DNA of 64,000 bases from a virus. Taxonomy: Duplodnaviria; Heunggongvirae; Uroviricota; Caudoviricetes. The position numbers and the translations under genes are program-made. Below, piece by piece: positions 4,143 through 41,452 of this stretch; position 1 is the stretch's first letter; every line of letters starts with the position of its first letter. The DNA lies in IMG/VR virus record IMGVR_UViG_3300009034_000003. The stretch is one strand, 5' to 3'. Under the pieces are notes generated by a model that was not told the DNA's origin, made no database searches, and saw nothing but the letters and a program-made list of their open reading frames with translations.

Positions 4143-4373
4143 ATGATCTACTATATCGAAGACGAAGACGGTTCTTTGACTGTTGGCCTAAGTAGAACAG
4201 AGTGGATATGGCGTGACGGTGAACTTCATCCTTGCGATGAGGAAGTTATACAAGGAGATGGGGATATTATTGTTGGAACGATTGGCCCCGAGTTGTACAA
4301 AGATGCAGAGCATGCAAAGGTAATAATAGATGAGATCAAAGCCCGTTTACGCGCATCAAATTATAGTAGATGA
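4143..4373 (+). CDS. hypothetical protein
   Basis: 76 aa ORF directly after array C. Confidence 0.45.
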   Translation: MIYYIEDEDGSLTVGLSRTEWIWRDGELHPCDEEVIQGDGDIIVGTIGPELYKDAEHAKVIIDEIKARLRASNYSR

Positions 4374-4722
4374 GTCATATAAAGCTAGAGTTACGGCTGA
4401 GGTTGGACGCTGGAACGCGGCTGGGAAACCTGTCCCTTCTTGGGAGGAGCTAGATGAGATAGCCAGTTTCCTGGGCGAGGCTAGGGCCAGTGGGGAGCTT
4501 TCTGCCGCAATGAAGAAGATTCAGCTGCCGCCTGGGATCGGCGTAATCGAATTTTCTAAGGATCTTGTTATGGTTTACTGGGAGGGGGACCCGATAGCGC
4601 ATGCGCTCATTAACGCTGGTATCGAAGATCTCCCCGTGCTATTGGCAGACGAGAACATAAATATCAGAGAACTTGCAAAACTGAAACTTGATATGTTACT
4701 AGCTAAAGGAGGTGATGCTTAG
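4330..4722 (+). CDS. HEAT-tail family protein (C-terminal DLPVLLADENINIRELAKLKL)
   Basis: C-terminal single HEAT/PBS-lyase-like repeat shared with ~24 paralogs in the window. Confidence 0.55.
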   Translation: MRSKPVYAHQIIVDESYKARVTAEVGRWNAAGKPVPSWEELDEIASFLGEARASGELSAAMKKIQLPPGIGVIEFSKDLVMVYWEGDPIAHALINAGIEDLPVLLADENINIRELAKLKLDMLLAKGGDA

Positions 4723-4971
4723 ATGACACGCGATGAACTTGTAGATTGTTTGAGGGGTAAAGAAGGCAAACCCATCTCGATACAGCACAAAGGCGGTACG
4801 ATTATGGGTAACTTTGAGTATCTCATATGGGATAGCACAGTCCCTGTAATAAAAGGTGTAAAGATAGATACCTGCGATACGACTTTCAATCCAGACGATA
4901 TCATTGAGATCAAGGATGCACCTATGTACCTAGAGGCTCTTAAGATAATGCGTAAGCTAAATGACTCCTAG
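4723..4971 (+). CDS. hypothetical protein
   Basis: 82 aa ORF with aaaggaggtga RBS. Confidence 0.5.
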   Translation: MTRDELVDCLRGKEGKPISIQHKGGTIMGNFEYLIWDSTVPVIKGVKIDTCDTTFNPDDIIEIKDAPMYLEALKIMRKLNDS

Positions 4972-4993
4972 TATTTTTTCATGACATTTATAG

Positions 4994-5019
4994 AAGATAT
5001 TCATAAAATTATAATGAAG
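4994..5019 (+). promoter_or_regulatory. conserved promoter-like motif (ATGACA-17-TAAAAT + ATAATGAAG) immediately upstream of array D
   Basis: Sequence tcatgacatttatagaagatattcataaaattataatgaag matches the motif seen at 9 other sites. Confidence 0.5.
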
Positions 5020-5027
5020 TCATAGCA

Positions 5028-5595
5028 TTTATGTGAACCTTGGCACGATTGCTTCAGCCTTAATATAAGCGAGATCCGTGATCACAGTGTGACAACCAGA
5101 ATTCCTGTGAGAACCATGTTAGATGTGTAAAGCCGCGCTATCCATGTAGAACCTTGGTATAATTGCACAAGCCATTATATAACTGGGAACCTATATAAAA
5201 GTGTGCAGTCGGAACCTAGCTGCGAACCAAACCTGTTGTACGTGCCAGGCATATATTGAGAACCGTATGAATATGCGTTACCGAGCCGTTAGAGCATTGG
5301 GAACCGTGCTGCGTATGCGAAGCCTCATTTCCGTGTGGGAACCTAATGTCAAGTGCGTAACCGCATTATAACTGGGAACCTGAATTTGTATGCGAAGCCA
5401 AACCTGCAGTGTGAATCATGTGTCTTCTGCGTAACCCTTTACGTATTGAGAACCGTGTATAATATGTTAAGCCGTATGTAAAATGAGAATCATGTGTAAT
5501 ATGCCAAGTCATTTATACCTTGTGAGCCCTATACTATATGTAGTCGCAAGCCGGATGAGAACCTTATAAGGAATACGGAGTCCTGCAGATAATGG
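5028..5595. repeat. tandem array D (~15 units) of same repeat
   Basis: Alternating tgtgaacc / tgcgaagcc-like cores with 36-37 bp period. Confidence 0.9.
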
Positions 5596-5900
5596 GAACC
5601 GAAGAGCCTTTGCAAATGGAAAACAAATCCCTTGACCTCATTTTCATTGATGGTAAGCACGATATCGACTGGCATAAAAGCTGCTTTGGCCATGGGTACA
5701 GCGACACCGCTTCCAGGTGTCTTAGGTGTTTGCGAATAGACGTATGTGTACTTGTGTCACTAGATAATGTTCTAGCCGAAGTCGATTCTGTTACTTTGCC
5801 GGAGCAATTGCCAGGGTATCTAGCAAGTGGATTTGAAGCGGTGAGGGAAAAAGCCACAGAGAAGCTCGAACAACTCAAGAGGTCTGCGGCGGAGGAATAA
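5592..5900 (+). CDS. HEAT-tail family protein (C-terminal EQLPGYLASGFEAVREKATEKLEQL)
   Basis: C-terminal HEAT-like motif; start codon lies in the last repeat unit (ATGGGAACC). Confidence 0.5.
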   Translation: MGTEEPLQMENKSLDLIFIDGKHDIDWHKSCFGHGYSDTASRCLRCLRIDVCVLVSLDNVLAEVDSVTLPEQLPGYLASGFEAVREKATEKLEQLKRSAAEE

Positions 5901-5908
5901 AAGTAAGA

Positions 5909-6208
5909 GTGAAAGAAGAAACAAAAGACAAGATATTAGTCATCCAGGCGTTGGTAGCCATAAAGGGGAGAGCTTCGGAGGTCTACGAAATTGTAAATAG
6001 TTCGGGCTGGGATGCTTTGGACCGGATATCAAAGGAAATGGCTAAACCTGACTCAGAACTTACAGTTGAGGATTGGAGAGCCTTTTTTGACGAGCACATG
6101 GTGCGTCTTAACGATCTCTATAGTAAAATGAACCATTTTGATAGTGTAATTGAGAGGATGACAGAGGAGGTACTAGCGGAAACGGGGTTTGTACCGGGGG
6201 AGGAATAG
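5909..6208 (+). CDS. hypothetical protein
   Basis: 99 aa ORF, closely packed with its neighbours. Confidence 0.45.
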   Translation: MKEETKDKILVIQALVAIKGRASEVYEIVNSSGWDALDRISKEMAKPDSELTVEDWRAFFDEHMVRLNDLYSKMNHFDSVIERMTEEVLAETGFVPGEE

Positions 6209-6220
6209 CTTGTATGGGAC

Positions 6221-6448
6221 ATGTATTTATATCATATGTACGAGGAGATAGTTCTAGCGATTGACCGCCTTAGACAAATGCGTCATGACATAGTGTGGTT
6301 TATCCCGGTGTTACTTTCGGGTAGTGTGCCCTCCATAAGAATAGGCGGAGGGCAGAATCTGCGTGACCTGCAATACGCGGATCTACAAAACGAACGGGAG
6401 AGAGACACATATCGGATACTACAATGGATGAAGCAGAATGCAAGTTAG
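6221..6448 (+). CDS. hypothetical protein
   Basis: 75 aa ORF. Confidence 0.35.
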   Translation: MYLYHMYEEIVLAIDRLRQMRHDIVWFIPVLLSGSVPSIRIGGGQNLRDLQYADLQNERERDTYRILQWMKQNAS

Positions 6449-6684
6449 CCACTTATCTTGGTTTTAACTTTACTATATGGCAGTTGTTGGAGCTCTGGGA
6501 ACAGGTAGATAAAAATATGCTATCTGCTGATGAACTTGGAATAGCTGGCTATTTAGTATATGTATGTGGTGTCGACAGGGTGTTTCATGTACTTTCGAAA
6601 GACTTAATTCCAAAGCTCACAAGTGAGTATCCTGACGAACAGGAGGAGGCCCTAAAGCAGATGGAAGAAATGGGCTTTATCTAG
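6424..6684 (+). CDS. hypothetical protein
   Basis: 86 aa ORF. Confidence 0.4.
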   Translation: MDEAECKLATYLGFNFTIWQLLELWEQVDKNMLSADELGIAGYLVYVCGVDRVFHVLSKDLIPKLTSEYPDEQEEALKQMEEMGFI

Positions 6685-6687
6685 GAG

Positions 6688-6879
6688 GTGTACAAAGTGG
6701 AAGCGGCAATATCGGCAATGATGCTCCTTATATCTTTAGGTTCTATTTTCTTGAACGTGGTCCTAGTGAATCAGAGAGATTATCATAGGTCCGGAGAGCA
6801 GACAGCGGAGACTGAAACTAAGTACTGGAAGGGTTTAGCTCTGCTTTATGAGAGGGAGCTTCGTGAAGCTAGGCAATGA
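6688..6879 (+). CDS. small membrane protein
   Basis: 63 aa; N-terminal hydrophobic helix; ggaggtg RBS. Confidence 0.4.
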   Translation: MYKVEAAISAMMLLISLGSIFLNVVLVNQRDYHRSGEQTAETETKYWKGLALLYERELREARQ

Positions 6880-6935
6880 GTTGTGCGCAGCCTTTTTAAT
6901 TTTCTGCCAGATTTATCGATGTATCATATAATAAA

Positions 6936-7211
6936 GTGAAAGGGGGTATGATGGTACAGGCGATTTATGGGTTTTTGAGTCCCGCTTCCGGTGCAACAGT
7001 AGAACCTCTAAGGGACAAGGTGTCCTTTGAGATCTTGGTGCAAAGGACAAATTTAGCGACTTGGGAGCACAAAGGTTGTTCTAAGTGTACAAATCACAAT
7101 GACATCATCGTGATGAGTATCGATAAGAAGCCCGTTTTTTACGACTGTCCCTGTGGGCACAGGTGGCTTACGGGACAGAAAAATTCGCCACAGTCTCAAA
7201 CAAAGGAGTGA
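6936..7211 (+). CDS. zinc-ribbon protein
   Basis: CSKC...CPCGH motif. Confidence 0.4.
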   Translation: MKGGMMVQAIYGFLSPASGATVEPLRDKVSFEILVQRTNLATWEHKGCSKCTNHNDIIVMSIDKKPVFYDCPCGHRWLTGQKNSPQSQTKE

Positions 7212-7217
7212 AACTAC

Positions 7218-9560
7218 ATGGAGGAAACGAGAGAGGAAGCGGGATTTAGTATCCCGCTTCAGAAGATCAACTTTGATGCAAGCATCACTGGGATGTTTGC
7301 GCAGGTAAGCTGCGAACAGGAATTTGAGAATCAGAACGATGTTCCTGTTGAAGCAGTTTACGTATTTCCGTTGCCAGAGGACGCGTCGGTAGCGGGATGT
7401 GAAATAGTTATAGGTGACAAGAGAATAGAGGCGGAGCTAAAGGAGAAGGAGCAAGCCAAAAAAGAGTACGACGACGCAGTGGCTGCTGGTCATCACGCCG
7501 GTCTCTTAGAACAGCGAAGAGCAAATATCTTCGCAATTAACGTAGGCGGTATAGAGCCTGGTGAGAACATCAAGGTAGTTATCGTCTACAACCAGCGAGT
7601 CCCTTGGCAGGACAGCGGCGGAAGGTTCACTATTCCGTTGGTGGTAGCTCCTCGATTCATTCCAGGAGAGCCAAGTGGTTCTAAGACTGGAGAAGGCTGG
7701 GCAGAGGATACCGATGAAGTGCCCGACGCATCCCAGATCACACCAGTAGTAGCAAGGGAAGGTGTTAGCTATACCGCTGACATCGCTGTGACCTTGTCTC
7801 CAGGGTTCAAGTGTCAGGTCAGTAGTCCTAGCCATGAGATGGTAGAGAGCCTTGTCAAGGAGAATTCAGGAAAAAAGACAAGGTACGACATCATTGATTT
7901 GGAGATCGATACTCCTACTAAGCCAATCACGATTGAGGTCAAGGACCTAGTGCCGGATCGCGACTTCATTGTGAGCTACCAGACAAAGTCGACTCAGATT
8001 GGAACTGGAGTACATAGGGGAAGCTTCGAAGGCGAGGCGTACGTCACCATTGACGTCATCCCTCCTGGTGCCGCTTCACCTAAGCCCAAAGATGTTATTT
8101 TCTGTTTGGATACTTCCGGTAGTATGGGCGGACCTAAGCTGGACGGATTGAAGGTTGTAGCTGAGAAGGTCGCCAAGCGCCTATCCGAACAGAATAAAGA
8201 GACTCGGATAGGGATAGTGGCCTTTGCGAGTGAGGTCCATCCGCTCCGGCCATTATCCGGAGTTTCCGAAGCTACTTACAAGGAAATTCAGGGATTAGAA
8301 TCAGGCGGCGGTACATACGCTGGCAAGGCGCTTAATCACTGTTTCCAGCAGCTAGCAGCGGGAAGTAACAGAGAGAAGTACATCTTGCTCGTTAGCGATG
8401 GTCAGACGCAAGATAAGTGGTCGAGCGCAGTACCTGGCATTCGGGTTGTTTCTGTAGGTATAGGCACAGCAACAAACATGGCCTACTTGAAGGAAATAGC
8501 TCGAGAGACCAAAGGCGTAAGCCTCGCTGTTTATCCAGGCGAGGATTATGACACTGTAGCAAGTACTTTAGCTGGGTATCTCGCGGGTCCAGTGCTCACG
8601 GATATCGAGGTGACCGTAGATGGTAAGGCACTGGCTGATGTCCTGGGGATCACCGATGTCTATGCATCGATGCCTGCTTCTCTTGCTCTGAGGATAACTG
8701 AGCCAGAGGTAAATTGGCCAGAGAATATTCAGCTAGTCGGTATGGACAGTAAGGGAAAGAAGTCGGTGCTCGTCCTCGATATGAAAGATGTCGGTGAATG
8801 TCTCTTCGCTCATCAGATCTGGGCCAAAGAGAAGCTACGCGACCGGGATCTTTCTGCTGAGGACATTGTCGCACTCAGTTTGAAGTTCGGTGTCCTTTGC
8901 AGTGCAACGGCATTTGTTGCAGTGCATCTAAAGGACGTGCCTGGAGCCAAGCCGGAGCGGATAGCGATTCCGGTGGATTTACCTCACACCTGGGATTACG
9001 AAAGGATATTCGGTGAAGAGGTACCGGTTGGAGGAGTTATTTCCGGTCGGCGCATTCGTGGTCTAGTTTCGGGCGTCTACGCGTCCCGTGCGCTAGGGGA
9101 ATCGAGTGACGGGTACAGGCCGCCCGGTGTGTATCCTGAGAAGATGATGGAGTCGTTGTTGGATCTTGGCGAACCATCGACATCCGCTAGTAGTTCTTCC
9201 AGTACATCCACTTCGGGCCCAGAATACAAGACGCGTGCCCCAGAAGTAAAAGCGATCCACGCTCAAGTCGTGGATGCGCTTGAGAATTTTGTCGATGAAC
9301 TCGAGCAGGATTCTATAGAGAGGGCCGCTGCAGTTGTACTCTGGGAGTCTTTGAAAAAGCAGATAACTAGGGAGAGCGTGGCTTTTTGGCCTGCCGATCA
9401 AAAATCACGGGCGTTCTACCTTCTCCTTAAGCTGCGAGCCTTCGGGTTTCATGGGGCAAAGGATGTCTTGAAGTTGCTTTCTATAGAGCCCAGTTCATTA
9501 GATCCCCTTGCCCATGGATGGTGGGAAAAGGCGCAACTGATCCTGGGAGTAGCAGTGTGA
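7218..9560 (+). CDS. VIT domain + von Willebrand factor A (vWA) domain protein
   Basis: N-terminal VIT-like block (YVFPLPEDASVAGCEIVIGDKRIEAELKEKEQAKKEYDDAVAAG...IFAINVGGIEPGENIKVVIVY); central vWA with MIDAS motif DTSGS (VIFCLDTSGSMGG...ILLVSDGQ). Confidence 0.75.
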   Translation: MEETREEAGFSIPLQKINFDASITGMFAQVSCEQEFENQNDVPVEAVYVFPLPEDASVAGCEIVIGDKRIEAELKEKEQAKKEYDDAVAAGHHAGLLEQRRANIFAINVGGIEPGENIKVVIVYNQRVPWQDSGGRFTIPLVVAPRFIPGEPSGSKTGEGWAEDTDEVPDASQITPVVAREGVSYTADIAVTLSPGFKCQVSSPSHEMVESLVKENSGKKTRYDIIDLEIDTPTKPITIEVKDLVPDRDFIVSYQTKSTQIGTGVHRGSFEGEAYVTIDVIPPGAASPKPKDVIFCLDTSGSMGGPKLDGLKVVAEKVAKRLSEQNKETRIGIVAFASEVHPLRPLSGVSEATYKEIQGLESGGGTYAGKALNHCFQQLAAGSNREKYILLVSDGQTQDKWSSAVPGIRVVSVGIGTATNMAYLKEIARETKGVSLAVYPGEDYDTVASTLAGYLAGPVLTDIEVTVDGKALADVLGITDVYASMPASLALRITEPEVNWPENIQLVGMDSKGKKSVLVLDMKDVGECLFAHQIWAKEKLRDRDLSAEDIVALSLKFGVLCSATAFVAVHLKDVPGAKPERIAIPVDLPHTWDYERIFGEEVPVGGVISGRRIRGLVSGVYASRALGESSDGYRPPGVYPEKMMESLLDLGEPSTSASSSSSTSTSGPEYKTRAPEVKAIHAQVVDALENFVDELEQDSIERAAAVVLWESLKKQITRESVAFWPADQKSRAFYLLLKLRAFGFHGAKDVLKLLSIEPSSLDPLAHGWWEKAQLILGVAV

Positions 9561-9629
9561 GTTGTCCATTAGCCGCTCCGCTCGTGCATCATGGGATATA
9601 TCATGTGTTTCATGGTGCACGAGACCCTT

Positions 9630-9685
9630 TTGAGTTTCATGAGTCATATGACTCATATGACTCATATGACTCATGAAACGCCCCG
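9630..9685. promoter_or_regulatory. near-palindromic element containing 4 tandem copies of TGACTCATA (operator-like)
   Basis: The sequence gtttcatgagtcatatgactcatatgactcatatgactcatgaaac is visible directly. Confidence 0.4.
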
Positions 9686-9727
9686 GAGACGGTGTTTTCA
9701 TAGAGAAGCGCACCTGGGAGGGTTCGT

Positions 9728-10111
9728 ATGACACCTGGATTTGATGCCAATAAACTAGGCCGTGAAGATATATTAGAACTGACGGCGCTGTATTTTCAAG
9801 GTCAACATCCTCTACTGATTCGCAAACGTGGCTGGGTGGTCCGTAATTTTCCATCGGCGATGAATCAGGACCTTGGACTCACGAAGGTCAATTGGCGGTA
9901 CGATTATGGGGTTCGGCTTACGTTACGCGCTTTACGTTTATTGAAGAAAGATTCTATTAGGGTGGAATTGGCTAATCTATGCTGCTTGCATAAATACTCG
10001 GGAAAGGCGTCTTTGTGGATACGAAATGTGAGTAAGGAATTCTTACCTCAGTTCCTTGTATCTCCTTACGAAGTGCTGAGATCTGCGGCTAGCCGGAGTC
10101 TTAAGGATTAG
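9728..10111 (+). CDS. HEAT-tail family protein
   Basis: C-terminal EFLPQFLVSPYEVLRSAASRSL. Confidence 0.45.
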   Translation: MTPGFDANKLGREDILELTALYFQGQHPLLIRKRGWVVRNFPSAMNQDLGLTKVNWRYDYGVRLTLRALRLLKKDSIRVELANLCCLHKYSGKASLWIRNVSKEFLPQFLVSPYEVLRSAASRSLKD

Positions 10112-10264
10112 ATCTTACCACGTATCAATATCCTGGCTTTCCATGCCGTCCAGGTTCAAAACCCATGTCGACATATGTCTATATATGTCAACGTACCTAT
10201 ACCCGTCTCTATATATCTCCACCTACATCCATCCAATTGCCTCACCCTCCTTTTCTTTATGACA

Positions 10265-10297
10265 TTTGTAGAGGATGTTCATAAAATATAACGAAGC
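10265..10297 (+). promoter_or_regulatory. conserved promoter-like motif (ATGACA-17-TAAAAT + ATAACGAAG) immediately upstream of array E
   Basis: Sequence ttatgacatttgtagaggatgttcataaaatataacgaag; near-identical over about 40 nt to the copy at 4981-5019. Confidence 0.5.
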
Positions 10298-10299
10298 CA

Positions 10300-10412
10300 T
10301 AAATTACCTGAGAACCGCACAGAAAGTGTAAAGCCATGTATGGTTTGAGAACCAATATTGCCAATGCGAAAGCCGTCTGGTTAATGAGAACCGTATGCTG
10401 CGTGTGATCTGG
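10300..10412. repeat. tandem array E (3 units)
   Basis: Sequence tgagaacc...tgtaaagcc...tgagaacc...tgcgaaagcc...tgagaacc. Confidence 0.8.
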
Positions 10413-10423
10413 GAGAAGGTCCG

Positions 10424-33760: not shown

Positions 33761-33779
33761 GCGGAGAGGAGGAGAGTAA

Positions 33780-34783: not shown

Positions 34784-36160
34784 ATGCGATATATGATGCT
34801 AGTAATAGCAGTAATTTCAATGGGCACTTTGATAGTAAATTGTGTTCTAGGAAATGTAGTCACATTGTTTGAAGACAACGAGCCTTTAGCTGGAAGATTG
34901 ACAGGTGGAGATGCAGTTGTAAGTATCGAACGCTTCGATGTCTATCATGGATCAAGAGCAATTAAGGTTGCTGCACCTATAATTGGGAACACAGGCCAAG
35001 CAAATAGCAGGTGCATTCTCGACTGGGAGTACAAAGTTGTCAAAAGACCGGTCGGAAGCAACGAAGTTCGATGGGTTATGTTCGCATGGAAAAAGCCAGA
35101 CAGCGACGGCATTATGGTTCAGTTTGCTGATGACTGCAGCTGGGGAGCGAATGTTCTCAGGTATTTTGCTGGTAAGAACCTCTCGGGATGGAAAGCCATT
35201 AGGGTGAGCAATCATGTCCCGCGAGGGTGGCAGATTGTGATCAGGGACCTATATTCCGATTTCGGCAATTTTACGTTGACCGGCATATCCCTCACACCTT
35301 TTAATGGTGTTGGGCTATTTGATTCTATTTATCTGGCAAAGAGCAAAGAAGATCTGCTTTCAGTCTTTGAGCCCACGCTAGGCACCGAGGTGTTTGTGGA
35401 TACTCCTAGCCGGGTGAGCGACGGCGCTACTTTTACTGCTTCTATAGAGGTTCGAAATGTATACGATTTAGCCGGATTTGAGATGGAAGTGAGCTTTAAT
35501 CCCGATGTTATTAAGGTTAACAGGGTAGAAGAGGGTACTTTTCTATCGAGCGGCGGGGTGACGTATTGGCTAAACCCCGATGATGATAATAGCAGAGGGA
35601 AGATAACCGAGATTGCATGTGTTCGAACGGACGGACGCAGTGGTGATGGTACCCTATTTACTATAGTATTTAAGGCTCGAGACGAAGGGAGTAGCAACAT
35701 TGTACTGGAAAATGTACGTTTAGCTGATTCAGAAGTCAGGATTATACCCACCAAAGTAACGGATGCCAGTGTGGAAGTGGCAACTGTTCCGCGCTGGGAT
35801 GTTAACGCTGACGGACGTGTCGATTTCCTTGATTTAGTAATAGTGGCACAGCATTTCGGGGAGTATATAAACCAGCCGGGCGAGGAAAATCCAGACGTTA
35901 CCGGCGACGGGAAAGTGGATGTAACAGACCTTATCACGGTGGGAAGGCACTATGGAGATGTCTATGGGGATGCCGCTCCAAGTAAACTCGCTTACTCTGT
36001 GCCGTTACGATTTGTACCATCCCTTGAAAAAGCACTTGATTTAGTTCGAAGTAGCCCTCATCCTGATAAAACCACTATAAAGTTGTTGATGGGCTTGATA
36101 AAGAATGCCAAGCCTATCAAAGACTCTACTTGGGGAGCACGCAAGTTCGAGCTAAGGTGA
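34784..36160 (+). CDS. secreted cohesin domain + dockerin domain protein
   Basis: Signal peptide MRYMMLVIAVISMGTLIVNC after gggagga RBS; cohesin-like block (FTASIEVRNVYDLAGFEMEVSFNPDVIKV...LFTIVFKARDEGSSNIVLENVRLAD); duplicated dockerin Ca-binding repeats DVNADGRVDFLDLVIVAQHFG and DVTGDGKVDVTDLITVGRHYG. Confidence 0.6.
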   Translation: MRYMMLVIAVISMGTLIVNCVLGNVVTLFEDNEPLAGRLTGGDAVVSIERFDVYHGSRAIKVAAPIIGNTGQANSRCILDWEYKVVKRPVGSNEVRWVMFAWKKPDSDGIMVQFADDCSWGANVLRYFAGKNLSGWKAIRVSNHVPRGWQIVIRDLYSDFGNFTLTGISLTPFNGVGLFDSIYLAKSKEDLLSVFEPTLGTEVFVDTPSRVSDGATFTASIEVRNVYDLAGFEMEVSFNPDVIKVNRVEEGTFLSSGGVTYWLNPDDDNSRGKITEIACVRTDGRSGDGTLFTIVFKARDEGSSNIVLENVRLADSEVRIIPTKVTDASVEVATVPRWDVNADGRVDFLDLVIVAQHFGEYINQPGEENPDVTGDGKVDVTDLITVGRHYGDVYGDAAPSKLAYSVPLRFVPSLEKALDLVRSSPHPDKTTIKLLMGLIKNAKPIKDSTWGARKFELR

Positions 36161-36576
36161 AACTGGACGAAGACAGATTGGCCTATTTGATACAGCATTA
36201 CGATCTGGTGCGGGTACTGCCTAGTTTGATTGAGCTAGAGCCGATGGAGAGGGAGCTCCTTGATGCCGGGTTAATGGAAATCGTTACCCGGCGAGCCGTG
36301 TCCAAGAGCGCTGATGGAAGTGTCGACGTGGGTCCTCGTCGGGTTTTAGTACTTTCAGAAGCGGCAAGGGAACTAGTGAGACGTCGCGCAGGACTGCGCT
36401 TGGTAAATGAGTTATTGTCTCGGGCGCATCCGCCTTTTTCCGCACCCGATTTAGGGAAAATAGTGGCCCGAGTTCCCTTTCACGCTCTTCCGTTGCTTCT
36501 TGCTTGTGGTGATAGTTCGATACGGGATCTGGCGGCCAGGAGAACGCGGAAACGGGAGTTTTTTCGAAGGATATGA
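36130..36576 (+). CDS. HEAT-tail family protein
   Basis: RLAYLIQHYDL N-terminal motif; C-terminal HALPLLLACGDSSIRDLAARR. Confidence 0.5.
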   Translation: MGSTQVRAKVKLDEDRLAYLIQHYDLVRVLPSLIELEPMERELLDAGLMEIVTRRAVSKSADGSVDVGPRRVLVLSEAARELVRRRAGLRLVNELLSRAHPPFSAPDLGKIVARVPFHALPLLLACGDSSIRDLAARRTRKREFFRRI

Positions 36577-36582
36577 ATCCAA

Positions 36583-36966
36583 GTGGATCTATCGGAACAT
36601 TTGCTTAGGTCTTTGACTTCTGCTTACTGGGTGATCCGTTCTTTGCCGCATCTTGGGAGACTCAGTGCCAACGAGAAAGAGTTAATGTCTTTAGGCTTGC
36701 TTGAGGTTGACATTGTAGGTATGGACGATCCTCCGGAGGACAGAAGATATGAGATAAAGATATCAGACGCAGGGGCACAGCTGGTTGAGGAGCGTTGCGT
36801 TCTAGCTTTGATAGAGTACGGCTGTGCGTCCGGCGTTGTGTACGGTAACAAAGTAAACGATTTGATTAAAAAAGTTCCCAAGGAGCGGCTTCCCAGGTTG
36901 CTAGCAAGCGATAACAATATTGTACGGCAAGTGGCAAAGGCACGATTAGAAGATGGAATTAACTGA
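36583..36966 (+). CDS. HEAT-tail family protein
   Basis: LLRSLTSAYWV N-terminal motif; C-terminal ERLPRLLASDNNIVRQVAKARLEDG. Confidence 0.55.
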   Translation: MDLSEHLLRSLTSAYWVIRSLPHLGRLSANEKELMSLGLLEVDIVGMDDPPEDRRYEIKISDAGAQLVEERCVLALIEYGCASGVVYGNKVNDLIKKVPKERLPRLLASDNNIVRQVAKARLEDGIN

Positions 36967-37339
36967 GGAACAAGTCGATTGGTTGGTTGAGCATTACGTT
37001 AATCCTGGACGTGCTCGAGGGAAGATGCCTTCACTTGAGCAGTCACTCCTAGACCTAGGTCTGATAAAGAGTGAGTGTTTTCCTACAAGGGACACGAATA
37101 TATACGTTCTATCGCTTACTGAAGAGGGATGGAAGGAAGCTGCCGGGTACAGGTTTGCAGAAGTAGTGGAGAAGTGCAAGGGAGTATTTTCTGGGGAGGC
37201 TATAGGAAGAGTCGTGATAGGTGGGTTGTCCCTAGGTGCTTTACCAGTACTACTCAGCAATGAAAGTGTGCTAGTGCAGAAATATGCGTCCAAGAGGCTC
37301 GAGCAGCTAAGGCATGAGAATGACTGTGGAGATAGCTGA
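36953..37339 (+). CDS. HEAT-tail family protein
   Basis: VDWLVEHYV N-terminal motif; C-terminal GALPVLLSNESVLVQKYASKRLEQL. Confidence 0.55.
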   Translation: MELTEEQVDWLVEHYVNPGRARGKMPSLEQSLLDLGLIKSECFPTRDTNIYVLSLTEEGWKEAAGYRFAEVVEKCKGVFSGEAIGRVVIGGLSLGALPVLLSNESVLVQKYASKRLEQLRHENDCGDS

Positions 37340-37724
37340 TAAGGAATTCGAGTTAGCAGTGCTTATGTATGTACAAGAGCCTCAAATGTACCCCTTGGGT
37401 AGGGCGCAAGAGCTATTTGATCTAGGTATATTTCGGTCAAGTGGACAGTTTGGTCTCGTTGAGAATAGTACGAAGCTCAAGAGAGGCGAGGCTATTTACG
37501 GGGTTACGCTTGCGCAAAGAGGCGTTGATTTAATTGCTCAAGCTGATCCTGTGAGGGTAGCTCGGATATGGATAGATCATGATTTTATAGTAGCTGGTAC
37601 GGGGTGGATTCTAAGTAAGATGTCACGTGATCAATTGCCTGAATTCTTGTCTCATGAGAGCCAAGAGGTAAGGAAGGCAGCATTTGCACGCCTACAGGAC
37701 CTAGAACGCGAAGCCAATGGGTAA
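37314..37724 (+). CDS. HEAT-tail family protein
   Basis: C-terminal DQLPEFLSHESQEVRKAAFARLQDLE. Confidence 0.55.
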   Translation: MRMTVEIADKEFELAVLMYVQEPQMYPLGRAQELFDLGIFRSSGQFGLVENSTKLKRGEAIYGVTLAQRGVDLIAQADPVRVARIWIDHDFIVAGTGWILSKMSRDQLPEFLSHESQEVRKAAFARLQDLEREANG

Positions 37725-38148
37725 GGCAAACGTGCTAACTCTAAATGACAAGCACATCGGTATATTGGCTGAGTTATATTGGAACGGGTCTCAATTCTCA
37801 CGAACTACACCGGAATTGCGCAAAGAAATCGAGGAGCTAATTGAAGAAGGTTTTATTGAGGAACGTCGTACATTTTTCAAGGTTCTACAGTGGCAGTGGT
37901 GTGTTCGACTTACTGGAGCTGGTGAAAAAGTCCATATGGCGATGGATCCTGTGCGCGTTTTTAATCATTACATGAGAACTGCTGATTCTTCGCGAACACT
38001 TCCAGCGGCGTGTGCCGCGGTAGCTAAATTTACACTAGATCAATTGCCGGGAGCTCTTGCACACGAGAACGAGAAGGTAAGGGAAGCCGCTACAGAGAGA
38101 TTGAGAGAGCTATCTCGTGGACCCTACTACTGTGAAACTAACGGATGA
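37717..38148 (+). CDS. HEAT-tail family protein
   Basis: C-terminal DQLPGALAHENEKVREAATERLRELS. Confidence 0.55.
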   Translation: MGKANVLTLNDKHIGILAELYWNGSQFSRTTPELRKEIEELIEEGFIEERRTFFKVLQWQWCVRLTGAGEKVHMAMDPVRVFNHYMRTADSSRTLPAACAAVAKFTLDQLPGALAHENEKVREAATERLRELSRGPYYCETNG

Positions 38149-38563
38149 GGAGCTAGACTTATTGGCAACAGCGTATGTGAAGAATTACGCTCTTGCGGTT
38201 CCGCCGCCACAACGCCCTGTAGAAGTTAGTCCGGTAGCAGAAGAACTTGTAGACGCTGGTCTTCTCAAAGAAGACTACACGCTTGCAGAAAAGCCTCTTG
38301 GCAACGAGAGAATCAATTTGGTAAGGCCTACCGTAAAGGGGATAGCTGTTCTAAAAGAGATGGATCCCGTACGGGTGCTCGAAGCCCTTGTGCGGACGGA
38401 TGCTACTGGTGCAGGTACTGGTATTGCTGTTTTCTGGATACTTCGGCGGTTGTCTCTTGAGCAATTGCCTTTGGTCTTGTCGCATGAAATGGAGAGCTTG
38501 CGCAAGGCAGCAAAAACAAGGATGGATGAATTCGAGGGGGATGAAGCAAGTAGATCTGAGTAA
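38117..38563 (+). CDS. HEAT-tail family protein
   Basis: C-terminal EQLPLVLSHEMESLRKAAKTRMDEFE. Confidence 0.55.
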   Translation: MDPTTVKLTDEELDLLATAYVKNYALAVPPPQRPVEVSPVAEELVDAGLLKEDYTLAEKPLGNERINLVRPTVKGIAVLKEMDPVRVLEALVRTDATGAGTGIAVFWILRRLSLEQLPLVLSHEMESLRKAAKTRMDEFEGDEASRSE

Positions 38564-39080
38564 ATTGGAAATGGAAGACGCGTTCGCTGTTTCTGTGGCC
38601 CGTGCTACTGCAGTCCTTCGAGGAGAAGTAGTGCGTATGGCCGCGAATAGGAAACCTGTGCCTGTGCACAGCTGTCTCAATGGCAGAGGATGCTACATGA
38701 TAAGAGCGTTTTTTGACCGGTTAGTGGATTTCCGGTTTGTTCGGCCGACATCTTATGGAGGTTTCAATATAACTGATGTAGATCGAGAGCTGGAACGGTA
38801 CGGATTGATCAAGATTATTGAGAAACCACAAGAGCAAGGGTATCTTCTAGGAGAGGCAATTACAACGGCTGCGCAGTTTAGTGTAGAGGTCACCGAGGAT
38901 GGCGAAGAATTTATTGAGAATGTCGATCCTATGGAATTGGCTTATTCTTTTATAAGGCAAGAGCTCCTTCCGCTGCTGGAGCGATTGATGCCTATGCTTG
39001 GGAAGGAAGCGTTGCCTGTATTTCTAACCCATTGGTCCCCCCGCGTACAGGAGATTGCTTTATCGTGTTTAGAGAGGTAG
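38541..39080 (+). CDS. HEAT-tail family protein
   Basis: C-terminal EALPVFLTHWSPRVQEIALSCLER; start moved to the Met after gaggggg (ORF track starts at 38388, overlapping the upstream gene). Confidence 0.45.
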   Translation: MKQVDLSKLEMEDAFAVSVARATAVLRGEVVRMAANRKPVPVHSCLNGRGCYMIRAFFDRLVDFRFVRPTSYGGFNITDVDRELERYGLIKIIEKPQEQGYLLGEAITTAAQFSVEVTEDGEEFIENVDPMELAYSFIRQELLPLLERLMPMLGKEALPVFLTHWSPRVQEIALSCLER

Positions 39081-39424
39081 TAACCGTGCCCGATGTACTA
39101 TTTCATAGAGTCTTGGGCGGCTATAGCGGTGAAACTGCAGAGAGTATAGAGCACGCCATTGAGGACATTATGAAAGTAGGTCTAGTGCCAAAAGTGGCGG
39201 ACGAATACAAAGGACTTGTTCCCGAAGAAATAAGGGATCGGCCTATCATTTGGCTAGGACGAGCAGATTTTTTCTCGCATAGTGAACAGGTGTTGTCTAT
39301 AAGAACAAAGTATCTTGATCCGGAGAGTTTATACGACTTGCAGCTAGATGATGTCGACTGGTGGGTGTATCAGGGACATATTCCACCGGAAGCTATTCGG
39401 AGAATTTCGACAGAAGGAGAATAA
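39032..39424 (+). CDS. hypothetical protein
   Basis: 130 aa. Confidence 0.4.
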   Translation: MVPPRTGDCFIVFREVVTVPDVLFHRVLGGYSGETAESIEHAIEDIMKVGLVPKVADEYKGLVPEEIRDRPIIWLGRADFFSHSEQVLSIRTKYLDPESLYDLQLDDVDWWVYQGHIPPEAIRRISTEGE

Positions 39425-39427
39425 CGT

Positions 39428-40462
39428 ATGAGTACGCGACTGGATCCGTCACCAATAGATTTTGAAAAACTTCGCCATAAGTTCTCAAGTATTCATGGCT
39501 TGACTATAGGCGATCAGACTCTGGATAGGAATTGCTCAGGGCAGTACGAAGGGTACTCAAGAGAGAAGGAGAGTCTTCCGATTTTTAGGGTTGCGCACGA
39601 GGTTTTTGGGCCAGGTGGTGCAGGTAACCTTGCTGCCAACTACTCCACCCTTGGTATCGGAACATCTGTTGCAGGTGTATGGGGTTATCCAACCGATCCT
39701 CATCGGAGATTGCTGGAGATGAGGTTCGATGAACTGGGGATAGATGCTACAGGTATGGTAGAGGGAGCGAGCACTCCCACTTTTGAAAAGTACTACTTTC
39801 CGAATGGAATGCATGTTATAAGGGTTGATGTTGCTTCTGGTGATTTGGCGGACTCTACAAGGCGCCAACTTATCGAGAGAGTCAGTCATTTTTTATCTAT
39901 TGACTTGGATTTTGTAGCTGTTGCTGACTACGATGATACAGGAAAGGGTGTGTGTAGCCAGCAGGTTCTGGAAGCAGTTGCATCTAGTGCATTGGTTCAG
40001 TTCGGAACTAGTAGACAGGGGATAAGGTCGTTCGTCGGTTTCGATACGTTGATGATTAACGAAAAGGAACTCTTTGAGTCCGTAGGAGACAGGCATCCGG
40101 ACCCCGAACGCAAAGCGGTATCGCTAATGTCTGTAACACAATCTAAGAAATTGGCTGTGACTCTCGGTGGACGCGGGATCCGTCTCTATCAGAGGAGCGG
40201 AAAGGTTATTGATTTAACCAGGGAAAACCCACTTAACGCAGCTGATGTTCCGGCATTTCCATTGGATGGTATGATAGATACTTGTGGATGTGGTGATACT
40301 TCTTTTGCGATGCTTTCTGCTAGTTTGGTGGCCGGATATACGTTCAAGGAGAGTGCCGTTCTCGCTAATAGTGCAGCTCGAGCAGCTGCGCGAAAGCTTT
40401 TTGGAGCTCATCCAGTTACTCTTGAAGAGGTAGAACGGGAATATAGGGAAGTGTATAGTTAG
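39428..40462 (+). CDS. PfkB-family sugar kinase resembling HldE domain I (D-glycero-beta-D-manno-heptose-7-phosphate kinase)
   Basis: GPGGAGNLAAN (compare RPGGAANVA), DTCGCGDTSFA (compare DVTGAGDTV) and C-terminal ANSAARAAARKLFGAHPVTLEEVE (compare [23 protein letters not shown]). Confidence 0.6.
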   Translation: MSTRLDPSPIDFEKLRHKFSSIHGLTIGDQTLDRNCSGQYEGYSREKESLPIFRVAHEVFGPGGAGNLAANYSTLGIGTSVAGVWGYPTDPHRRLLEMRFDELGIDATGMVEGASTPTFEKYYFPNGMHVIRVDVASGDLADSTRRQLIERVSHFLSIDLDFVAVADYDDTGKGVCSQQVLEAVASSALVQFGTSRQGIRSFVGFDTLMINEKELFESVGDRHPDPERKAVSLMSVTQSKKLAVTLGGRGIRLYQRSGKVIDLTRENPLNAADVPAFPLDGMIDTCGCGDTSFAMLSASLVAGYTFKESAVLANSAARAAARKLFGAHPVTLEEVEREYREVYS

Positions 40463-40482
40463 TACAGTAGGAGGAATGGTAT

Positions 40483-40713
40483 ATGGGTGAAGAGCAACTA
40501 AAGGAGATAGCTGAAGAGACTATAGAGGATCTTAACCTTAGCTTAGAGATAAGCATTCGTCAAACATTAAGCAAGAGAATGGAGCGACTGGAGAGGGACC
40601 GCATTTATCTTGGTAATGGGTACCACAGAGCTCAAAAGATGACCGCAAAGCTAATGCCTGGGATCAAAGAGCTTTTACCCGGTCTGGTGAATGAAGCTTT
40701 GCATATCGAATGA
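40483..40713 (+). CDS. hypothetical protein
   Basis: 76 aa; ggaggaatggtatATG RBS. Confidence 0.45.
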   Translation: MGEEQLKEIAEETIEDLNLSLEISIRQTLSKRMERLERDRIYLGNGYHRAQKMTAKLMPGIKELLPGLVNEALHIE

Positions 40714-41228
40714 GTGATAGTAACTTATCGGATTTGCATCTAAATATATTGGTCACTGTTTACTATACCAAAGGATCAGTATGCGTTGATGATCTCCGTG
40801 ACACATACAATTTTCTTGTGAAAGCAGGCCTAATGCGCTATACCGGGATGATGCGCGATATAGTTGCTATTCGTTCTATGTCTAGTCCTATGCTTGTAGA
40901 GAGGGTACCTGGACCAACAATACATATAGCCGTTGCCGCTACGGAGGAAGGCCAAGAGTTAGTTGCGGGCATGAATATTGCTCGTAAGGTTGAAGCGTGC
41001 GTTGCTATGGGAGATATTGAAGCTACTAAGGCACTTGCAAATAGTCTTTCTATGGAAGAGCTTCCGCCGTTACTTGCTAGCGACTGTGGATTTGTTAGGA
41101 GTGCTGCGAAAGATAGATTGACTGCTCTTGGGGATGATACGCAAGTAGAAAAGGATTCTGGCGGGAAGATGTATTTCATCGATGTACACGGAGGACATGT
41201 TGCATGCATCAAAGGGCTCGCGAATTGA
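40710..41228 (+). CDS. HEAT-tail family protein
   Basis: HLNILVTVYYT N-terminal motif; C-terminal EELPPLLASDCGFVRSAAKDRLTALG. Confidence 0.55.
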   Translation: MSDSNLSDLHLNILVTVYYTKGSVCVDDLRDTYNFLVKAGLMRYTGMMRDIVAIRSMSSPMLVERVPGPTIHIAVAATEEGQELVAGMNIARKVEACVAMGDIEATKALANSLSMEELPPLLASDCGFVRSAAKDRLTALGDDTQVEKDSGGKMYFIDVHGGHVACIKGLAN

Positions 41229-41452
41229 CAAATAAGTGGCGCGTACTCGCTGCACTTATGGACGGCGTGTCTCTTGAGGCACTACCTTCGCTCCTAGCTA
41301 GTGAGGATACTATGACGAGGGAGTTAGCTAGCAGGAGACTCCAGGAGTGTCTAGATTCTATGTCCGCTGAAGAGCTTCCGAGGTTTTTGGCTGATACAGA
41401 TTCCTTGGTGCGTGAGGTTGCAGGCGATCTGTTAGAAAGAAAGGTAAAGTGA
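41204..41452 (+). CDS. HEAT-tail family protein with two tandem HEAT-like repeats
   Basis: EALPSLLASEDTMTRELASRRLQECL and EELPRFLADTDSLVREVAGDLLERK. Confidence 0.5.
   Translation: MHQRARELTNKWRVLAALMDGVSLEALPSLLASEDTMTRELASRRLQECLDSMSAEELPRFLADTDSLVREVAGDLLERKVK

What the first reader, a model, noticed from the sequence alone, without database searches (positions are those of the whole stretch)
4330..41452. Expansion of about 24 paralogous small proteins, each ending in one HEAT/PBS-lyase-like repeat (LPxFLxxExxxVRxxAxxRLxEL)
The members (80-230 aa) start at 4330, 5592, 9728, 15885, 20442, 20872, 21838, 23187, 23426, 23896, 24272, 25446, 25967, 27361, 27804, 36130, 36583, 36953, 37314, 37717, 38117, 38541, 40710 and 41204. 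One (41204) carries two repeats. Examples are DQLPEFLSHESQEVRKAAFARLQDLE, RELPAALASDNDWVRKEAISRMKELL and DRLPFYLSHKEAAVREAAKEKLRELRRG.

Many also share an N-terminal L-x2-L-x3-Y...L-x-x-G-(L/I) segment, for example LAMLASIYYYP, LAYLIQHYDL and VDWLVEHYV, which may be a small helical or winged-helix domain. A few have extra modules: TM helices in 15885 and a Cys cluster in 21838.

Tandem runs of 6-7 genes (36130-39080) indicate recent duplication and diversification, as seen in anti-defence or host-takeover families. They could instead be the proteins that recognise the tandem DNA/RNA arrays. A family this large within 64 kb is very unusual.
Basis: seen in the sequence. Interest (0 to 1): 0.88.

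Follow-up and report, generated by a model that had tools for sequence, protein, structure and literature searches.

The report
Phage winged-helix paralogs with shared tail
An uncultured large phage carries 24 diverged small genes that all end in the same armadillo/HEAT-like helical hairpin, 14 of them behind a winged-helix domain; this is a real, unnamed family of probable early regulators or adaptors whose function is still unknown.

Summary
All 24 ORFs exist on the + strand, and each ends in the motif LPxFLx[SH]xxxxVRxxAxxRLxEL; ORF 41204 has it twice. Conservation is at the protein level only, because third codon positions are random.

No Pfam, PHROG, NCBIfam or PADLOC family matches. A library-wide profile search found 335 metagenomic clusters, which occur several to a contig.

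The paralogs are old (18-31% identity) and under purifying selection (dN/dS 0.07-0.27). They are not recent duplicates.

Their cognate Tas protein is ORF 18842-19813, so the family is not needed to recognise them.

Best reading: a lineage-specific expansion of small early-gene regulators or adaptors, each with a variable winged-helix face and a constant C-terminal association module. The mechanism is inferred, not shown. I rate it a new variant of a known kind, of moderate interest.

The parts
4330..4722 (+). Motif-only member, 130 aa. C-terminal hairpin DLPVLLADENINIRELAKLKL on an unrelated N-terminus. Lies just downstream of a TIGR array block.
   Evidence: Motif HMM E=1.8e-11; leave-one-out E=2.8e-6; independent A2 HMM E=8.3e-4.
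5592..5900 (+). Motif-only member, 102 aa, with a Cys-rich N-terminus. Its start codon overlaps the last TIGR box.
   Evidence: Motif HMM E=6.4e-14; leave-one-out 1.2e-9; A2 HMM 9.6e-7.
9728..10111 (+). Member with the helical C-half only, 127 aa. This is the weakest motif (FLPQFLVSPYEVLRSAASRSL).
   Evidence: Motif HMM 9.8e-10; leave-one-out only 0.088. The independent A2 HMM gives 1.1e-8 over profile positions 61-128.
15885..16484 (+). Motif-only member, 199 aa, with two hydrophobic (TM-like) segments before the hairpin. Lies directly after the largest TIGR block.
   Evidence: Motif HMM 4.5e-13; leave-one-out 5.7e-9; translation.
20442..20891 (+). Full member, 149 aa (winged helix + helical half + hairpin).
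   Evidence: Recovered although not a seed, E=8e-8; N-domain HMM 3.9e-20.
20872..21291 (+). Full member, 139 aa. Its orthologue in L001 lies directly downstream of tas.
   Evidence: Motif 4.1e-13; N-domain 2.7e-27; L001 orthologue 58% identical, dN/dS 0.27.
21838..22527 (+). Motif-only member, 229 aa, with an N-terminal Cys cluster (CxCxxC...CxxC).
   Evidence: Motif 2e-11; leave-one-out 3e-6; translation.
23187..23432 (+). Motif-only mini-member, 81 aa.
   Evidence: Motif 7.3e-14; leave-one-out 1.4e-10.
23426..23677 (+). Member with the helical C-half only, 83 aa.
   Evidence: Motif 1.3e-13; A2 HMM 1.4e-7 over positions 71-131.
23896..24279 (+). Motif-only member, 127 aa. The hairpin is internal (LALHLTNENEVVRAVAKRRLQEL) and is followed by a Cys/Trp-rich tail.
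   Evidence: Non-seed, E=1.1e-5; L001 orthologue 73% identical, dN/dS 0.07.
24272..24652 (+). Full member, 126 aa.
   Evidence: Motif 2.7e-12; N-domain 1.4e-15.
25446..25769 (+). Member with the helical C-half only, 107 aa, very acidic.
   Evidence: Motif 2.3e-13; A2 HMM 2.7e-8 over positions 65-132; L001 orthologue 64% identical, dN/dS 0.22.
25967..26335 (+). Full member, 122 aa, with a shortened linker.
   Evidence: Non-seed, E=9.4e-5; N-domain 6.2e-21; L001 orthologue 62% identical, dN/dS 0.20.
27361..27801 (+). Full member, 146 aa.
   Evidence: Motif 1.3e-10; N-domain 7.5e-17; L001 orthologue 56% identical, dN/dS 0.27.
27804..28274 (+). Full member, 156 aa.
   Evidence: Motif 6.4e-14; N-domain 1.4e-8; L001 orthologue 68% identical, dN/dS 0.21.
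36130..36576 (+). Full member, 148 aa, basic (pI 10.5). First gene of the seven-gene run.
   Evidence: Motif 3.6e-10, but leave-one-out motif E=4.8. Supported by N-domain 4.7e-15 and the full HMM.
36583..36966 (+). Full member, 127 aa.
   Evidence: Motif 5.4e-12; N-domain 7.2e-21.
36953..37339 (+). Full member, 128 aa. Overlaps its neighbours by 14 and 26 nt.
   Evidence: Motif 4.5e-12; N-domain 5.5e-15.
37314..37724 (+). Full member, 136 aa.
   Evidence: Motif 4.2e-14; N-domain 2.5e-13.
37717..38148 (+). Full member, 143 aa. This is the protein that was modelled.
38117..38563 (+). Full member, 148 aa.
   Evidence: Motif 1.5e-13; N-domain 2.6e-20.
38541..39080 (+). Full member, 179 aa from the ATG (an upstream TTG at 38388 would give 230 aa). 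It has an N-terminal extension and an insertion.
   Evidence: Motif 1e-10; leave-one-out 0.018; N-domain 1.7e-14.
40710..41228 (+). Full member, 172 aa, with a 25-aa tail after the hairpin.
   Evidence: Motif 3.3e-13; N-domain 3.1e-15; relatives in L007 and L026.
41204..41452 (+). Two-hairpin member, 82 aa, with no winged helix.
   Evidence: Two motif domains, 1.2e-7 and 6.1e-11; PADLOC HEAT-ARM_XIII E=3.5e-4.

Best explanation
These are 24 real, co-oriented, tightly packed genes in the early/auxiliary region of an uncultured large phage. They form a lineage-specific expansion of one unnamed protein family.

The core unit (14 genes) has three parts. The first is a MarR/PadR-like winged-helix domain whose H1-H3 loop and wing tip vary strongly in length. 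The second is a helical linker. The third is one armadillo/HEAT-type helix-turn-helix hairpin at the very C-terminus. Ten further genes carry only the helical half or the hairpin on unrelated N-termini, including a TM protein, Cys-rich proteins, ~80-aa mini-proteins and a two-hairpin protein.

Most likely mechanism (inferred, not shown): the variable winged-helix face reads a paralog-specific ligand, either a DNA site or a protein. The constant C-terminal hairpin makes a shared protein-protein contact. The simplest version is homo- or hetero-dimerisation, as the C-terminal helices do in PadR/MarR regulators. On this reading the family is a set of small regulators or adaptors, and the hairpin-only proteins could join or poison such dimers.

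Shown: the genes, the motif, the folds, the age of the paralogs, purifying selection, and restriction to one metagenomic phage clade with many copies per genome. Inferred: ligand binding by the winged helix, and what the hairpin contacts.
For: - Motif and gene set.
- Protein-level selection only.
- The family profile, positions 88-132, aligns to each repeat of designed armadillo proteins.
- In a 121-sequence alignment the most conserved positions lie in the C-terminal repeat: L110 and A125 invariant, P111 94%, R122 89%, R128 85%. The H1-H3 loop and the wing tip are the length-variable segments.
- Natural fusions of two complete units exist (P0021, P0027, P0029, P0088), and so do proteins with two tandem hairpins (P0036, P0090, window 41204).
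- Orthologues in L001 keep synteny, with dN/dS 0.07-0.27.
- There are 335 clusters library-wide. Of the 165 homologues held at that point (150 from that search, 15 from the earlier word-index search), 160 carry the motif. Copies are multiple on every contig read: 9 in L001, at least 6 in L007, 3 in L025, 4 in L026, 3 of 4 genes in L006.
- Precedent: jumbo phages encode 1-15 transcription factors, and Bacillus phage G carries expansions of Myb-type HTH proteins and about 35 zinc ribbons (PMC7824862).
Against: - The winged helix does not look like a classical DNA reader. Mean net charge is -2.2 and median pI of the whole proteins is 5.6. No basic residue is conserved in helix 3 or the wing. Helix 2 is almost absent, and helix 3 is short in most members.
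- A dimerisation-only role does not obviously explain why the hairpin was spread to ten unrelated proteins, including a membrane protein.
- The model of a natural two-unit fusion gave pTM 0.49, so it says nothing reliable about how two units pack.
- No complex could be modelled and no model coordinates could be inspected.
- No expression data are available.
Confidence: 0.4

Rival explanations
1. Hub-docking adaptors. The constant C-terminal hairpin is a docking tag that completes or binds a repeat surface on one shared partner. That partner could be a host machine such as RNA polymerase or a protease, or a phage protein such as the Tas-tigRNA complex encoded next to several members. The variable N-terminal domains bring different targets or activities to the hub. 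This would be a host-takeover or anti-defence toolkit, comparable in logic to F-box or PRANC proteins and to dockerin-bearing enzymes.
For: - The hairpin is the most conserved part across 121 diverse sequences, while the N-domains diverge.
- It sits on ten unrelated N-termini, always at or near the C-terminus.
- The winged helices are acidic and suit protein binding.
- Split designed armadillo fragments appear among the profile hits (2ru4). From my own knowledge, not tested here, such fragments are known to reassemble.
- Members flank tas and TIGR arrays in the window, L001 and L007/L008.
Against: - No multi-repeat ARM/HEAT hub is encoded in the window. The motif HMM finds only the 24 ORFs.
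- In the model the hairpin is packed with very high confidence into one compact unit rather than hanging as a flexible tag.
- None of the 16 other TIGR loci has a member.
- The family clusters L025 and L026 have no tas or array within 8-13 kb.
- No gene-wide positive selection is seen.
Confidence: 0.3
2. Virion-targeting or other sorting tag. The shared C-terminal module directs diverse small proteins to one place, for example into the capsid for co-injection or to a membrane or compartment.
For: - A shared terminal module on unrelated proteins, one of which has TM segments.
- Location among small early-type genes.
Against: - The genes sit beside replication and metabolic genes, not structural genes.
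- The module is a folded, integral part of the core protein.
- No protease or portal context was seen. From my own knowledge, known capsid-targeting signals are short and N-terminal.
Confidence: 0.06
3. The family recognises the tandem arrays. On this reading the winged-helix proteins bind the 37-nt arrays or their transcripts.
For: - Four motif-only members lie immediately next to array blocks. Arrays and members co-occur in the window, L001 and L007/L008.
Against: - The arrays are dual-repeat TIGR arrays, and their cognate binder is the Tas protein at 18842-19813 (NF052498 161.5 bits against a cut-off of 100; PDB 9mty E=8.7e-21; PMC12045711).
- Of 16 IMG/VR loci found with the array pattern, 14 show strand-specific box enrichment and 13 encode a Tas homologue. 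None encodes a family member.
- The four array-adjacent members lack the winged helix.
Confidence: 0.04
4. Artefact. The repeated motif reflects a repeated DNA element or spurious ORFs rather than proteins. Alternatively, the genes are true HEAT/PBS-lyase proteins.
For: None beyond the resemblance of the motif to the HEAT_PBS consensus.
Against: - Third-position identity is 0.30, and all synonymous codons are used at the invariant residues.
- Orthologues are under purifying selection, and 335 outside clusters exist.
- There is one repeat, not a solenoid. Pfam HEAT scores 13.9-14.2 bits against a cut-off of 23.5.
Confidence: 0.01

Closest known systems
PadR / MarR-type winged-helix regulators (e.g. 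PDB 2nnn, 6pco, 5h3r, 5zqh, 5x11)
   Different: There is no Pfam MarR or PadR match. PDB sequence-profile hits are only E 0.003-0.05. Helix 2 is nearly missing, helix 3 is short and acidic, and no wing or helix-3 basic residue is conserved. The C-terminal module is an ARM/HEAT-type hairpin that also occurs on unrelated proteins. No solved structure aligns over more than 90 of the 143 residues.
Armadillo / HEAT (including HEAT_PBS) repeats, closest to consensus-designed armadillo repeat proteins (4rzp, 4rv1, 4hxt)
   Same: Profile positions 88-132 align residue for residue with each 42-aa designed repeat, of the form ...L..LP.LL.s....V...A...L..l. There are weak Pfam HEAT and PADLOC HEAT-ARM hits.
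   Different: There is one repeat per protein (two in 41204 and a few outside homologues), not a solenoid of three or more. All scores fall below the Pfam gathering thresholds. The armadillo Asn ladder is absent. Family-specific conserved residues are P111, H116, R122 and R128.
Lineage-specific expansions of small DNA-binding proteins in large phages (Bacillus phage G Myb-type HTH and ~35 zinc ribbons; Iyer et al. 2021, PMC7824862)
   Same: Many diverged paralogs of one small nucleic-acid-binding-type domain occur within a single large phage genome, with function unknown.
   Different: The domain is different (winged helix plus ARM/HEAT hairpin). Here the constant element is a portable C-terminal module shared with non-winged-helix proteins. 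The clade is uncultured and carries TIGR-Tas.
Constant-tail adaptor families (poxvirus ANK/PRANC, F-box proteins, dockerin-bearing enzymes). This is an analogy from my own knowledge, not homology.
   Same: The logic matches: a variable N-terminal domain plus a short, conserved C-terminal module in many paralogs of one genome.
   Different: There is no sequence or fold relation, no partner has been identified, and the host is a bacterium with no ubiquitin system. The resemblance is conceptual only.

Membership tests
HEAT repeat (Pfam PF02985) / HEAT_PBS | Score at or above the Pfam gathering threshold | tested here: not met
   The best HEAT hits are 13.9 and 14.2 bits (E 0.066 and 0.054) against a cut-off of 23.5. 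Most members give no hit even at E<=10.
HEAT / armadillo repeat proteins | Tandem array of at least 3 repeats forming a solenoid | tested here: not met
   The motif HMM finds one repeat per ORF and two in 41204. The model shows a single terminal hairpin stacked on two or three linker helices.
HEAT / armadillo repeat proteins | Repeat-unit consensus (helix-turn-helix with L..L / V..A..L core spacing) | tested here: met
   Profile positions 88-132 align to every repeat of 4rzp, 4rv1 and 4hxt. The summed E-value is 2.6e-15, at about 13 bits per repeat.
Phycobilisome (PBS) lyase, CpcE/NblB type | Multi-repeat HEAT_PBS protein in a cyanobacterial or cyanophage phycobilin context | tested here: not met
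   No HEAT_PBS hit, a single repeat, and no phycobilin genes among the window proteins scanned.
MarR/PadR winged-helix transcription regulators | Winged-helix fold | tested here: met
MarR/PadR winged-helix transcription regulators | Sequence membership (Pfam MarR/PadR models) | tested here: not met
   No MarR or PadR Pfam hit at E<=10. PDB profile hits to MarR proteins reach only E 0.003-0.05. PHROG 'transcriptional regulator' gives E=0.0095.
MarR/PadR winged-helix transcription regulators | Conserved basic DNA-contact residues in the recognition helix and wing; complete helix-turn-helix | tested here: not met
   K/R frequency is <=0.29 at the helix-3 positions and <=0.26 at the wing tip. Mean domain charge is -2.2, and helix 2 is reduced to about 3 residues. 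This lowers the claim 'is a MarR' but does not exclude DNA binding.
MarR/PadR winged-helix transcription regulators | Homodimer through terminal helices; binding to an operator | not testable with these tools
   No multimer modelling was available. The model of a natural two-unit fusion gave pTM 0.49, which is uninformative.
TIGR-Tas system components | Nop-domain Tas protein, or a described accessory such as TasParB | tested here: not met
   Family members give no NCBIfam hit, while ORF 18842-19813 scores 161.5 bits to NF052498. The papers read name only a ParB-like accessory (PMC12045711). The terms 'accessory' and 'winged' are absent from the 2026 preprint.
Known defence-system proteins (PADLOC) | Significant match to a PADLOC model | tested here: not met
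   Only marginal hits were found: PDC-S56 at E=0.0075 and HEAT-ARM_XIII at E=3.5e-4. No anti-defence library was available.
Lineage-specific paralog expansion in a large phage | Many diverged paralogs in one genome, with orthologues retained in relatives | tested here: met
   24 copies lie within 37 kb. L001 has 9 copies in 12.9 kb, with orthologues 56-73% identical. L007, L025 and L026 have 3 to at least 6 copies each.

The most novel reading that the evidence does not exclude
The constant C-terminal hairpin may be a docking module that plugs many different small proteins onto one shared partner. The most interesting candidate is the apparently nuclease-less Tas-tigRNA complex encoded beside them. 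In that case this phage clade would pair a very large guide-RNA repertoire (about 145 tigRNA units) with a toolkit of about 24 recruitable effector or adaptor proteins. That would be natural RNA-guided recruitment rather than RNA-guided cleavage.
Probability: 0.07. Interest if true: 0.9.

Novelty: new variant of a known kind. Interest (0 to 1): 0.5.

Why it matters
If the reading holds, the family would be one of the larger single-genome protein expansions described in a phage. It would also be a clear natural example of a single ARM/HEAT-type hairpin used as a portable association module.

It defines an unnamed family of at least 335 clusters that marks an uncultured clade of large phages. 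That is useful for annotation.

Its function matters for understanding the early programme of these phages. If the members are combinatorial regulators, or adaptors that share one partner, they would show how these phages organise that programme. Some of these phages also carry exceptionally large TIGR-Tas guide arrays.

Either dimerisation or hub docking could be tested directly with a handful of proteins.

Tried and rejected
- Megablast of 12 kb of the window against 50,697 GenBank phages found nothing. tblastn of one member found nothing. The DNA polymerase is at most 32% identical to any cultured phage.
- Pfam, PHROG, NCBIfam and PADLOC scans of members gave no family.
- The word-index protein search is nearly blind to this family. 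It returned 19, 12 and 2 hits, against 335 from the exhaustive profile search.
- The search for related loci with family alignments failed twice. In one case no conserved stretch was available. In the other, 22 pattern matches were not confirmed against one reference sequence. Presence of the family in IMG/VR is therefore unresolved.
- A single member in viral contigs gave nothing.
- The AlphaFold2 model of a natural two-unit fusion, made to learn how units pack, had pTM 0.49 and is unusable for that purpose.
- BFVD fold search gave a best TM-score of 0.46 and no whole-architecture match. The afdb50 library was not available.
- DNA-element origin of the motif was rejected.
- Rfam found nothing in the window, and there are no tRNAs.
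- Self-targeting by TIGR spacers was tested. Matches to window 19-64 kb are not enriched and are slightly depleted: 32 observed 9-mer matches against 46.4 +/- 6.7 expected.
- Co-occurrence of the family with tas was examined. It is seen in three family-bearing loci from two phage lineages, but the family is absent from 16 other TIGR loci and tas is absent from two other family loci. All of those loci are short, so the test is inconclusive.

Full report
**1.

Each of the 24 start coordinates opens a + strand ORF of 81-229 aa.

A loose regular expression for the motif matches 21 times in + strand ORFs and once on the - strand. An HMM built from those 21 segments was searched against all 1164 six-frame segments. 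The next hit is E=0.008 on the opposite strand.

Circularity was checked in three ways:
- Three members were not seeds and were still found.
- In leave-one-out runs, 17 of 21 seeds return at E<=3e-6.
- An HMM trained only on full-length members and outside homologues detects all ten motif-only ORFs at E<=8.3e-4.

The four weak leave-one-out cases are 27361, 38541, 9728 and 36130. They are supported by the longer profile or by outside homologues that carry the motif.

The motif is a protein feature, not a DNA repeat. Nucleotide identity across the 25 copies is 0.42/0.55/0.30 by codon position. The invariant Leu, Pro, Leu and Ala use all their synonymous codons.

**2. Anatomy**

The ORFs fall into three classes:
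- **Full members (14):** 20442, 20872, 24272, 25967, 27361, 27804, 36130, 36583, 36953, 37314, 37717, 38117, 38541 and 40710. These share an N-terminal domain, a helical linker and the terminal hairpin.
- **Helical C-half only (3):** 9728, 23426 and 25446.
- **Last hairpin only (7):** on unrelated N-termini. These include a protein with two hydrophobic segments (15885), two Cys-rich proteins (5592, 21838), an 81-aa mini-protein (23187) and a two-hairpin protein (41204).

No winged-helix-only ORF exists in the window.

AlphaFold2 on the 37717 protein with a 31-sequence alignment gives pLDDT 85.8 and pTM 0.76. The elements are H11-23, a short strand, H32-43, a beta-hairpin wing (47-54, 58-65) and five helices. 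The last hairpin is the most confident part.

A profile search of PDB sequences aligns family positions 88-132 with each 42-residue repeat of consensus-designed armadillo proteins. For 4rzp the summed E-value is 2.6e-15, at about 13 bits per repeat. The same search gives weak MarR hits for the N-domain.

As family membership both fail. Pfam HEAT scores 13.9-14.2 bits against a cut-off of 23.5, and there is no MarR or PadR hit.

**3. How widespread and how old**

The word-index protein search found only 19 homologues, all metagenomic and unnamed. The exhaustive profile search of 1.84 billion representatives found 335 clusters at E<=1e-3 and 67 at E<=1e-10. Most are 100-180 aa and cover the whole profile.

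Of the 165 sequences held at that point, 160 carry the C-terminal motif. The family consensus is ...LS.E.LPEFL(T/S)H....VR..A..R(L/M).EL.

Every contig read carries several copies:
- 9 in 12.9 kb of L001
- at least 6 in 14 kb of L007
- 3 in L025
- 4 in L026
- 3 of 4 genes in L006

In the window, about half of the + strand ORFs between 20.2 and 41.5 kb are members. Neighbours in the run at 36130-39080 abut or overlap by 8-32 nt, so they are probably co-transcribed.

The paralogs are 18-31% identical. Six window members have syntenic orthologues in L001 at 56-73% identity, with dN/dS 0.07-0.27. Tas, the PP2C phosphatase and the 633-aa protein give 0.10-0.12. dS is near saturation, so these ratios are rough.

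The expansion is therefore old, and each copy is maintained. "Recent duplication" is not supported, and there is no gene-wide sign of an arms race. Site-wise selection could not be tested.

No cultured phage is close. The DNA polymerase is at most 32% identical to any, and a family member gives no tblastn hit in 50,697 phage records.

**4. What the arrays are, and why that matters here**

The ORF-poor zones between about 0.6 and 18.8 kb hold a strand-specific array with a 37-nt period. It alternates the boxes TGAGAACC and TGCGTAGCC, separated by ~10-nt variable segments:
- TGAGAACC occurs 63 times on the + strand and once on the - strand, against 2 expected.
- 204 chained boxes lie on + and none on -, giving about 145 units in at least 8 blocks.

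Right after the last main blocks lies ORF 18842-19813. It scores 161.5 bits (cut-off 100) to NCBIfam NF052498, "TIGR-Tas system RNA-guided endonuclease". It also matches PDB 9mty at E=8.7e-21.

The arrays fit the published description of dual-repeat TIGR arrays: 36-nt tigRNAs with two spacers flanked by box C/D-type repeats (PMC12045711; bioRxiv 10.64898/2026.09.09.750476).

A search of IMG/VR with the array pattern returned 16 loci. Fourteen show strand-specific box enrichment and 13 encode a homologue of this Tas protein. None encodes a family member.

The arrays therefore have their own conserved partner, and the family is not that partner. Family genes do flank tas and arrays in the window, L001 and L007/L008. 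Family clusters also occur with no tas or array within 8-13 kb (L025, L026). All these loci are short, so a functional link is neither shown nor excluded.

**5. Mechanism**

What is shown is the architecture: a variable winged-helix face plus a constant C-terminal hairpin.

In a 121-sequence alignment the most conserved positions lie in the hairpin. L110 and A125 are invariant, P111 is 94%, L114 90%, R122 89%, R128 85% and H116 52%. The H1-H3 loop and the wing tip are the parts that vary most in length.

The layout matches PadR/MarR regulators, in which C-terminal helices dimerise. Natural fusions of two whole units and proteins with two tandem hairpins exist. On this basis I take the most likely mechanism to be small dimeric, possibly heterodimerising, regulators or adaptors. 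The hairpin would be the association element and the winged-helix face would carry paralog-specific recognition.

Two points count against simple DNA-binding regulators:
- The domain is acidic (mean charge -2.2), has no conserved basic residue in helix 3 or the wing, and has an almost missing helix 2.
- The hairpin has spread to ten unrelated proteins, which fits a docking tag for a shared partner better.

I therefore give the dimerising regulator/adaptor reading 0.4 and the hub-docking reading 0.3. A sorting tag gets 0.06, array recognition 0.04 and artefact or true PBS lyase 0.01. The remainder is left for something not considered.

The model of a two-unit fusion gave pTM 0.49 and cannot decide between these.

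**6. Comparison and novelty**

The closest known things are:
- PadR/MarR winged-helix regulators: fold and layout met; sequence membership and DNA-contact residues not met.
- Consensus armadillo/HEAT repeats: unit consensus met; solenoid and thresholds not met.
- Lineage-specific expansions of small DNA-binding-type proteins in large phages. A survey of 224 jumbo phages reports 1-15 transcription factors per genome, and Bacillus phage G has Myb-type HTH and about 35 zinc-ribbon copies (PMC7824862).

What is new is the family itself. It has no name in any library searched. Also new are the single terminal ARM/HEAT hairpin used as a portable module and its scale, 24 copies in 37 kb.

I rate it a new variant of a known kind, with interest 0.5. 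It is real, large and unnamed, but built from common folds, and its function is unresolved.

Noticed in passing
window 636-18787 (+ strand): blocks at 636-1032, 1305-1815, 2307-4108, 5032-5601, 10309-10985, 14144-15876, 17842-18787: Very large dual-repeat TIGR arrays of about 145 units of 37 nt, built from alternating boxes TGAGAACC and TGCGTAGCC with ~10-nt variable spacers. 204 chained boxes lie on + and none on -. The published catalogue averages about 16 tigRNAs per dual-repeat array (65,635 in 4,126 arrays), so this system is unusually big and is split into many blocks interleaved with small genes.
   Followed up: yes
window 18842-19813 (+): Tas protein of the TIGR-Tas system: NF052498 at 161.5 bits against a cut-off of 100, and PDB 9mty at E=8.7e-21. 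It lacks the N-terminal ~95 residues of 9mty. It also has an ~85-aa insertion (residues ~117-202) containing CxxC and further Cys/His. Whether it has any nuclease activity was not determined. Homologues sit next to arrays in 13 of 16 IMG/VR array loci.
   Followed up: partly
window spacers against window 19001-64000: TIGR spacers match the rest of the window less often than shuffled spacers do: 32 observed 9-mer matches against 46.4 +/- 6.7, and 7 observed 10-mer matches against 11.0 +/- 3.2. This is consistent with mild avoidance of self-targeting. Their real targets are unknown.
   Followed up: partly
window 28311-31125 (+); L001 9303-12370; L002 9056-11848: A conserved gene pair: a PP2C phosphatase (306 aa) followed by a 633-aa protein with a weak kinase-like hit (LanL kinase region, E=3.6e-6). 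The pair is kept in L001 (75% and 85% identity) and in the 235-kb contig IMGVR_UViG_3300031997_000001 (36% and 50%).
   Followed up: no
window 34727-36160 (+): A 477-aa protein with a cohesin domain (E=6.6e-12) followed by a dockerin (E=2.1e-9). It lies immediately upstream of, and overlaps, the first gene of the seven-gene family run. Its role in a phage is unclear.
   Followed up: no
window 57449-59950 (+): Family A DNA polymerase with an N-terminal uracil-DNA-glycosylase-superfamily domain and a 3'-5' exonuclease domain in one 833-aa protein. It is at most 32% identical to any cultured phage polymerase.
   Followed up: no
window 24649-25335 (+) and 39428-40462 (+): A Thg1-like tRNA-His guanylyltransferase homologue (E=9.8e-21) and a PfkB-family sugar kinase (E=4e-14) are embedded between family members. 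The order 'family - PfkB - family' is conserved in L025.
   Followed up: partly
window 7218-9560 (+): A 780-aa protein with VIT and von Willebrand A domains. A 70%-identical fragment is present in L026 next to family genes.
   Followed up: no
window 54393-54506: A 33-nt tandem repeat of 3.5 copies at 98% identity. It lies inside ORF 53974-54768, so it would encode an 11-aa repeat.
   Followed up: no
window 9639-9674 and 21413-21455: Two short 9-nt tandem repeats: ATGACTCAT x4 and TAAATAGAG x4.8. The first lies just upstream of family ORF 9728 and the second lies between family genes. Their function is unknown.
   Followed up: no
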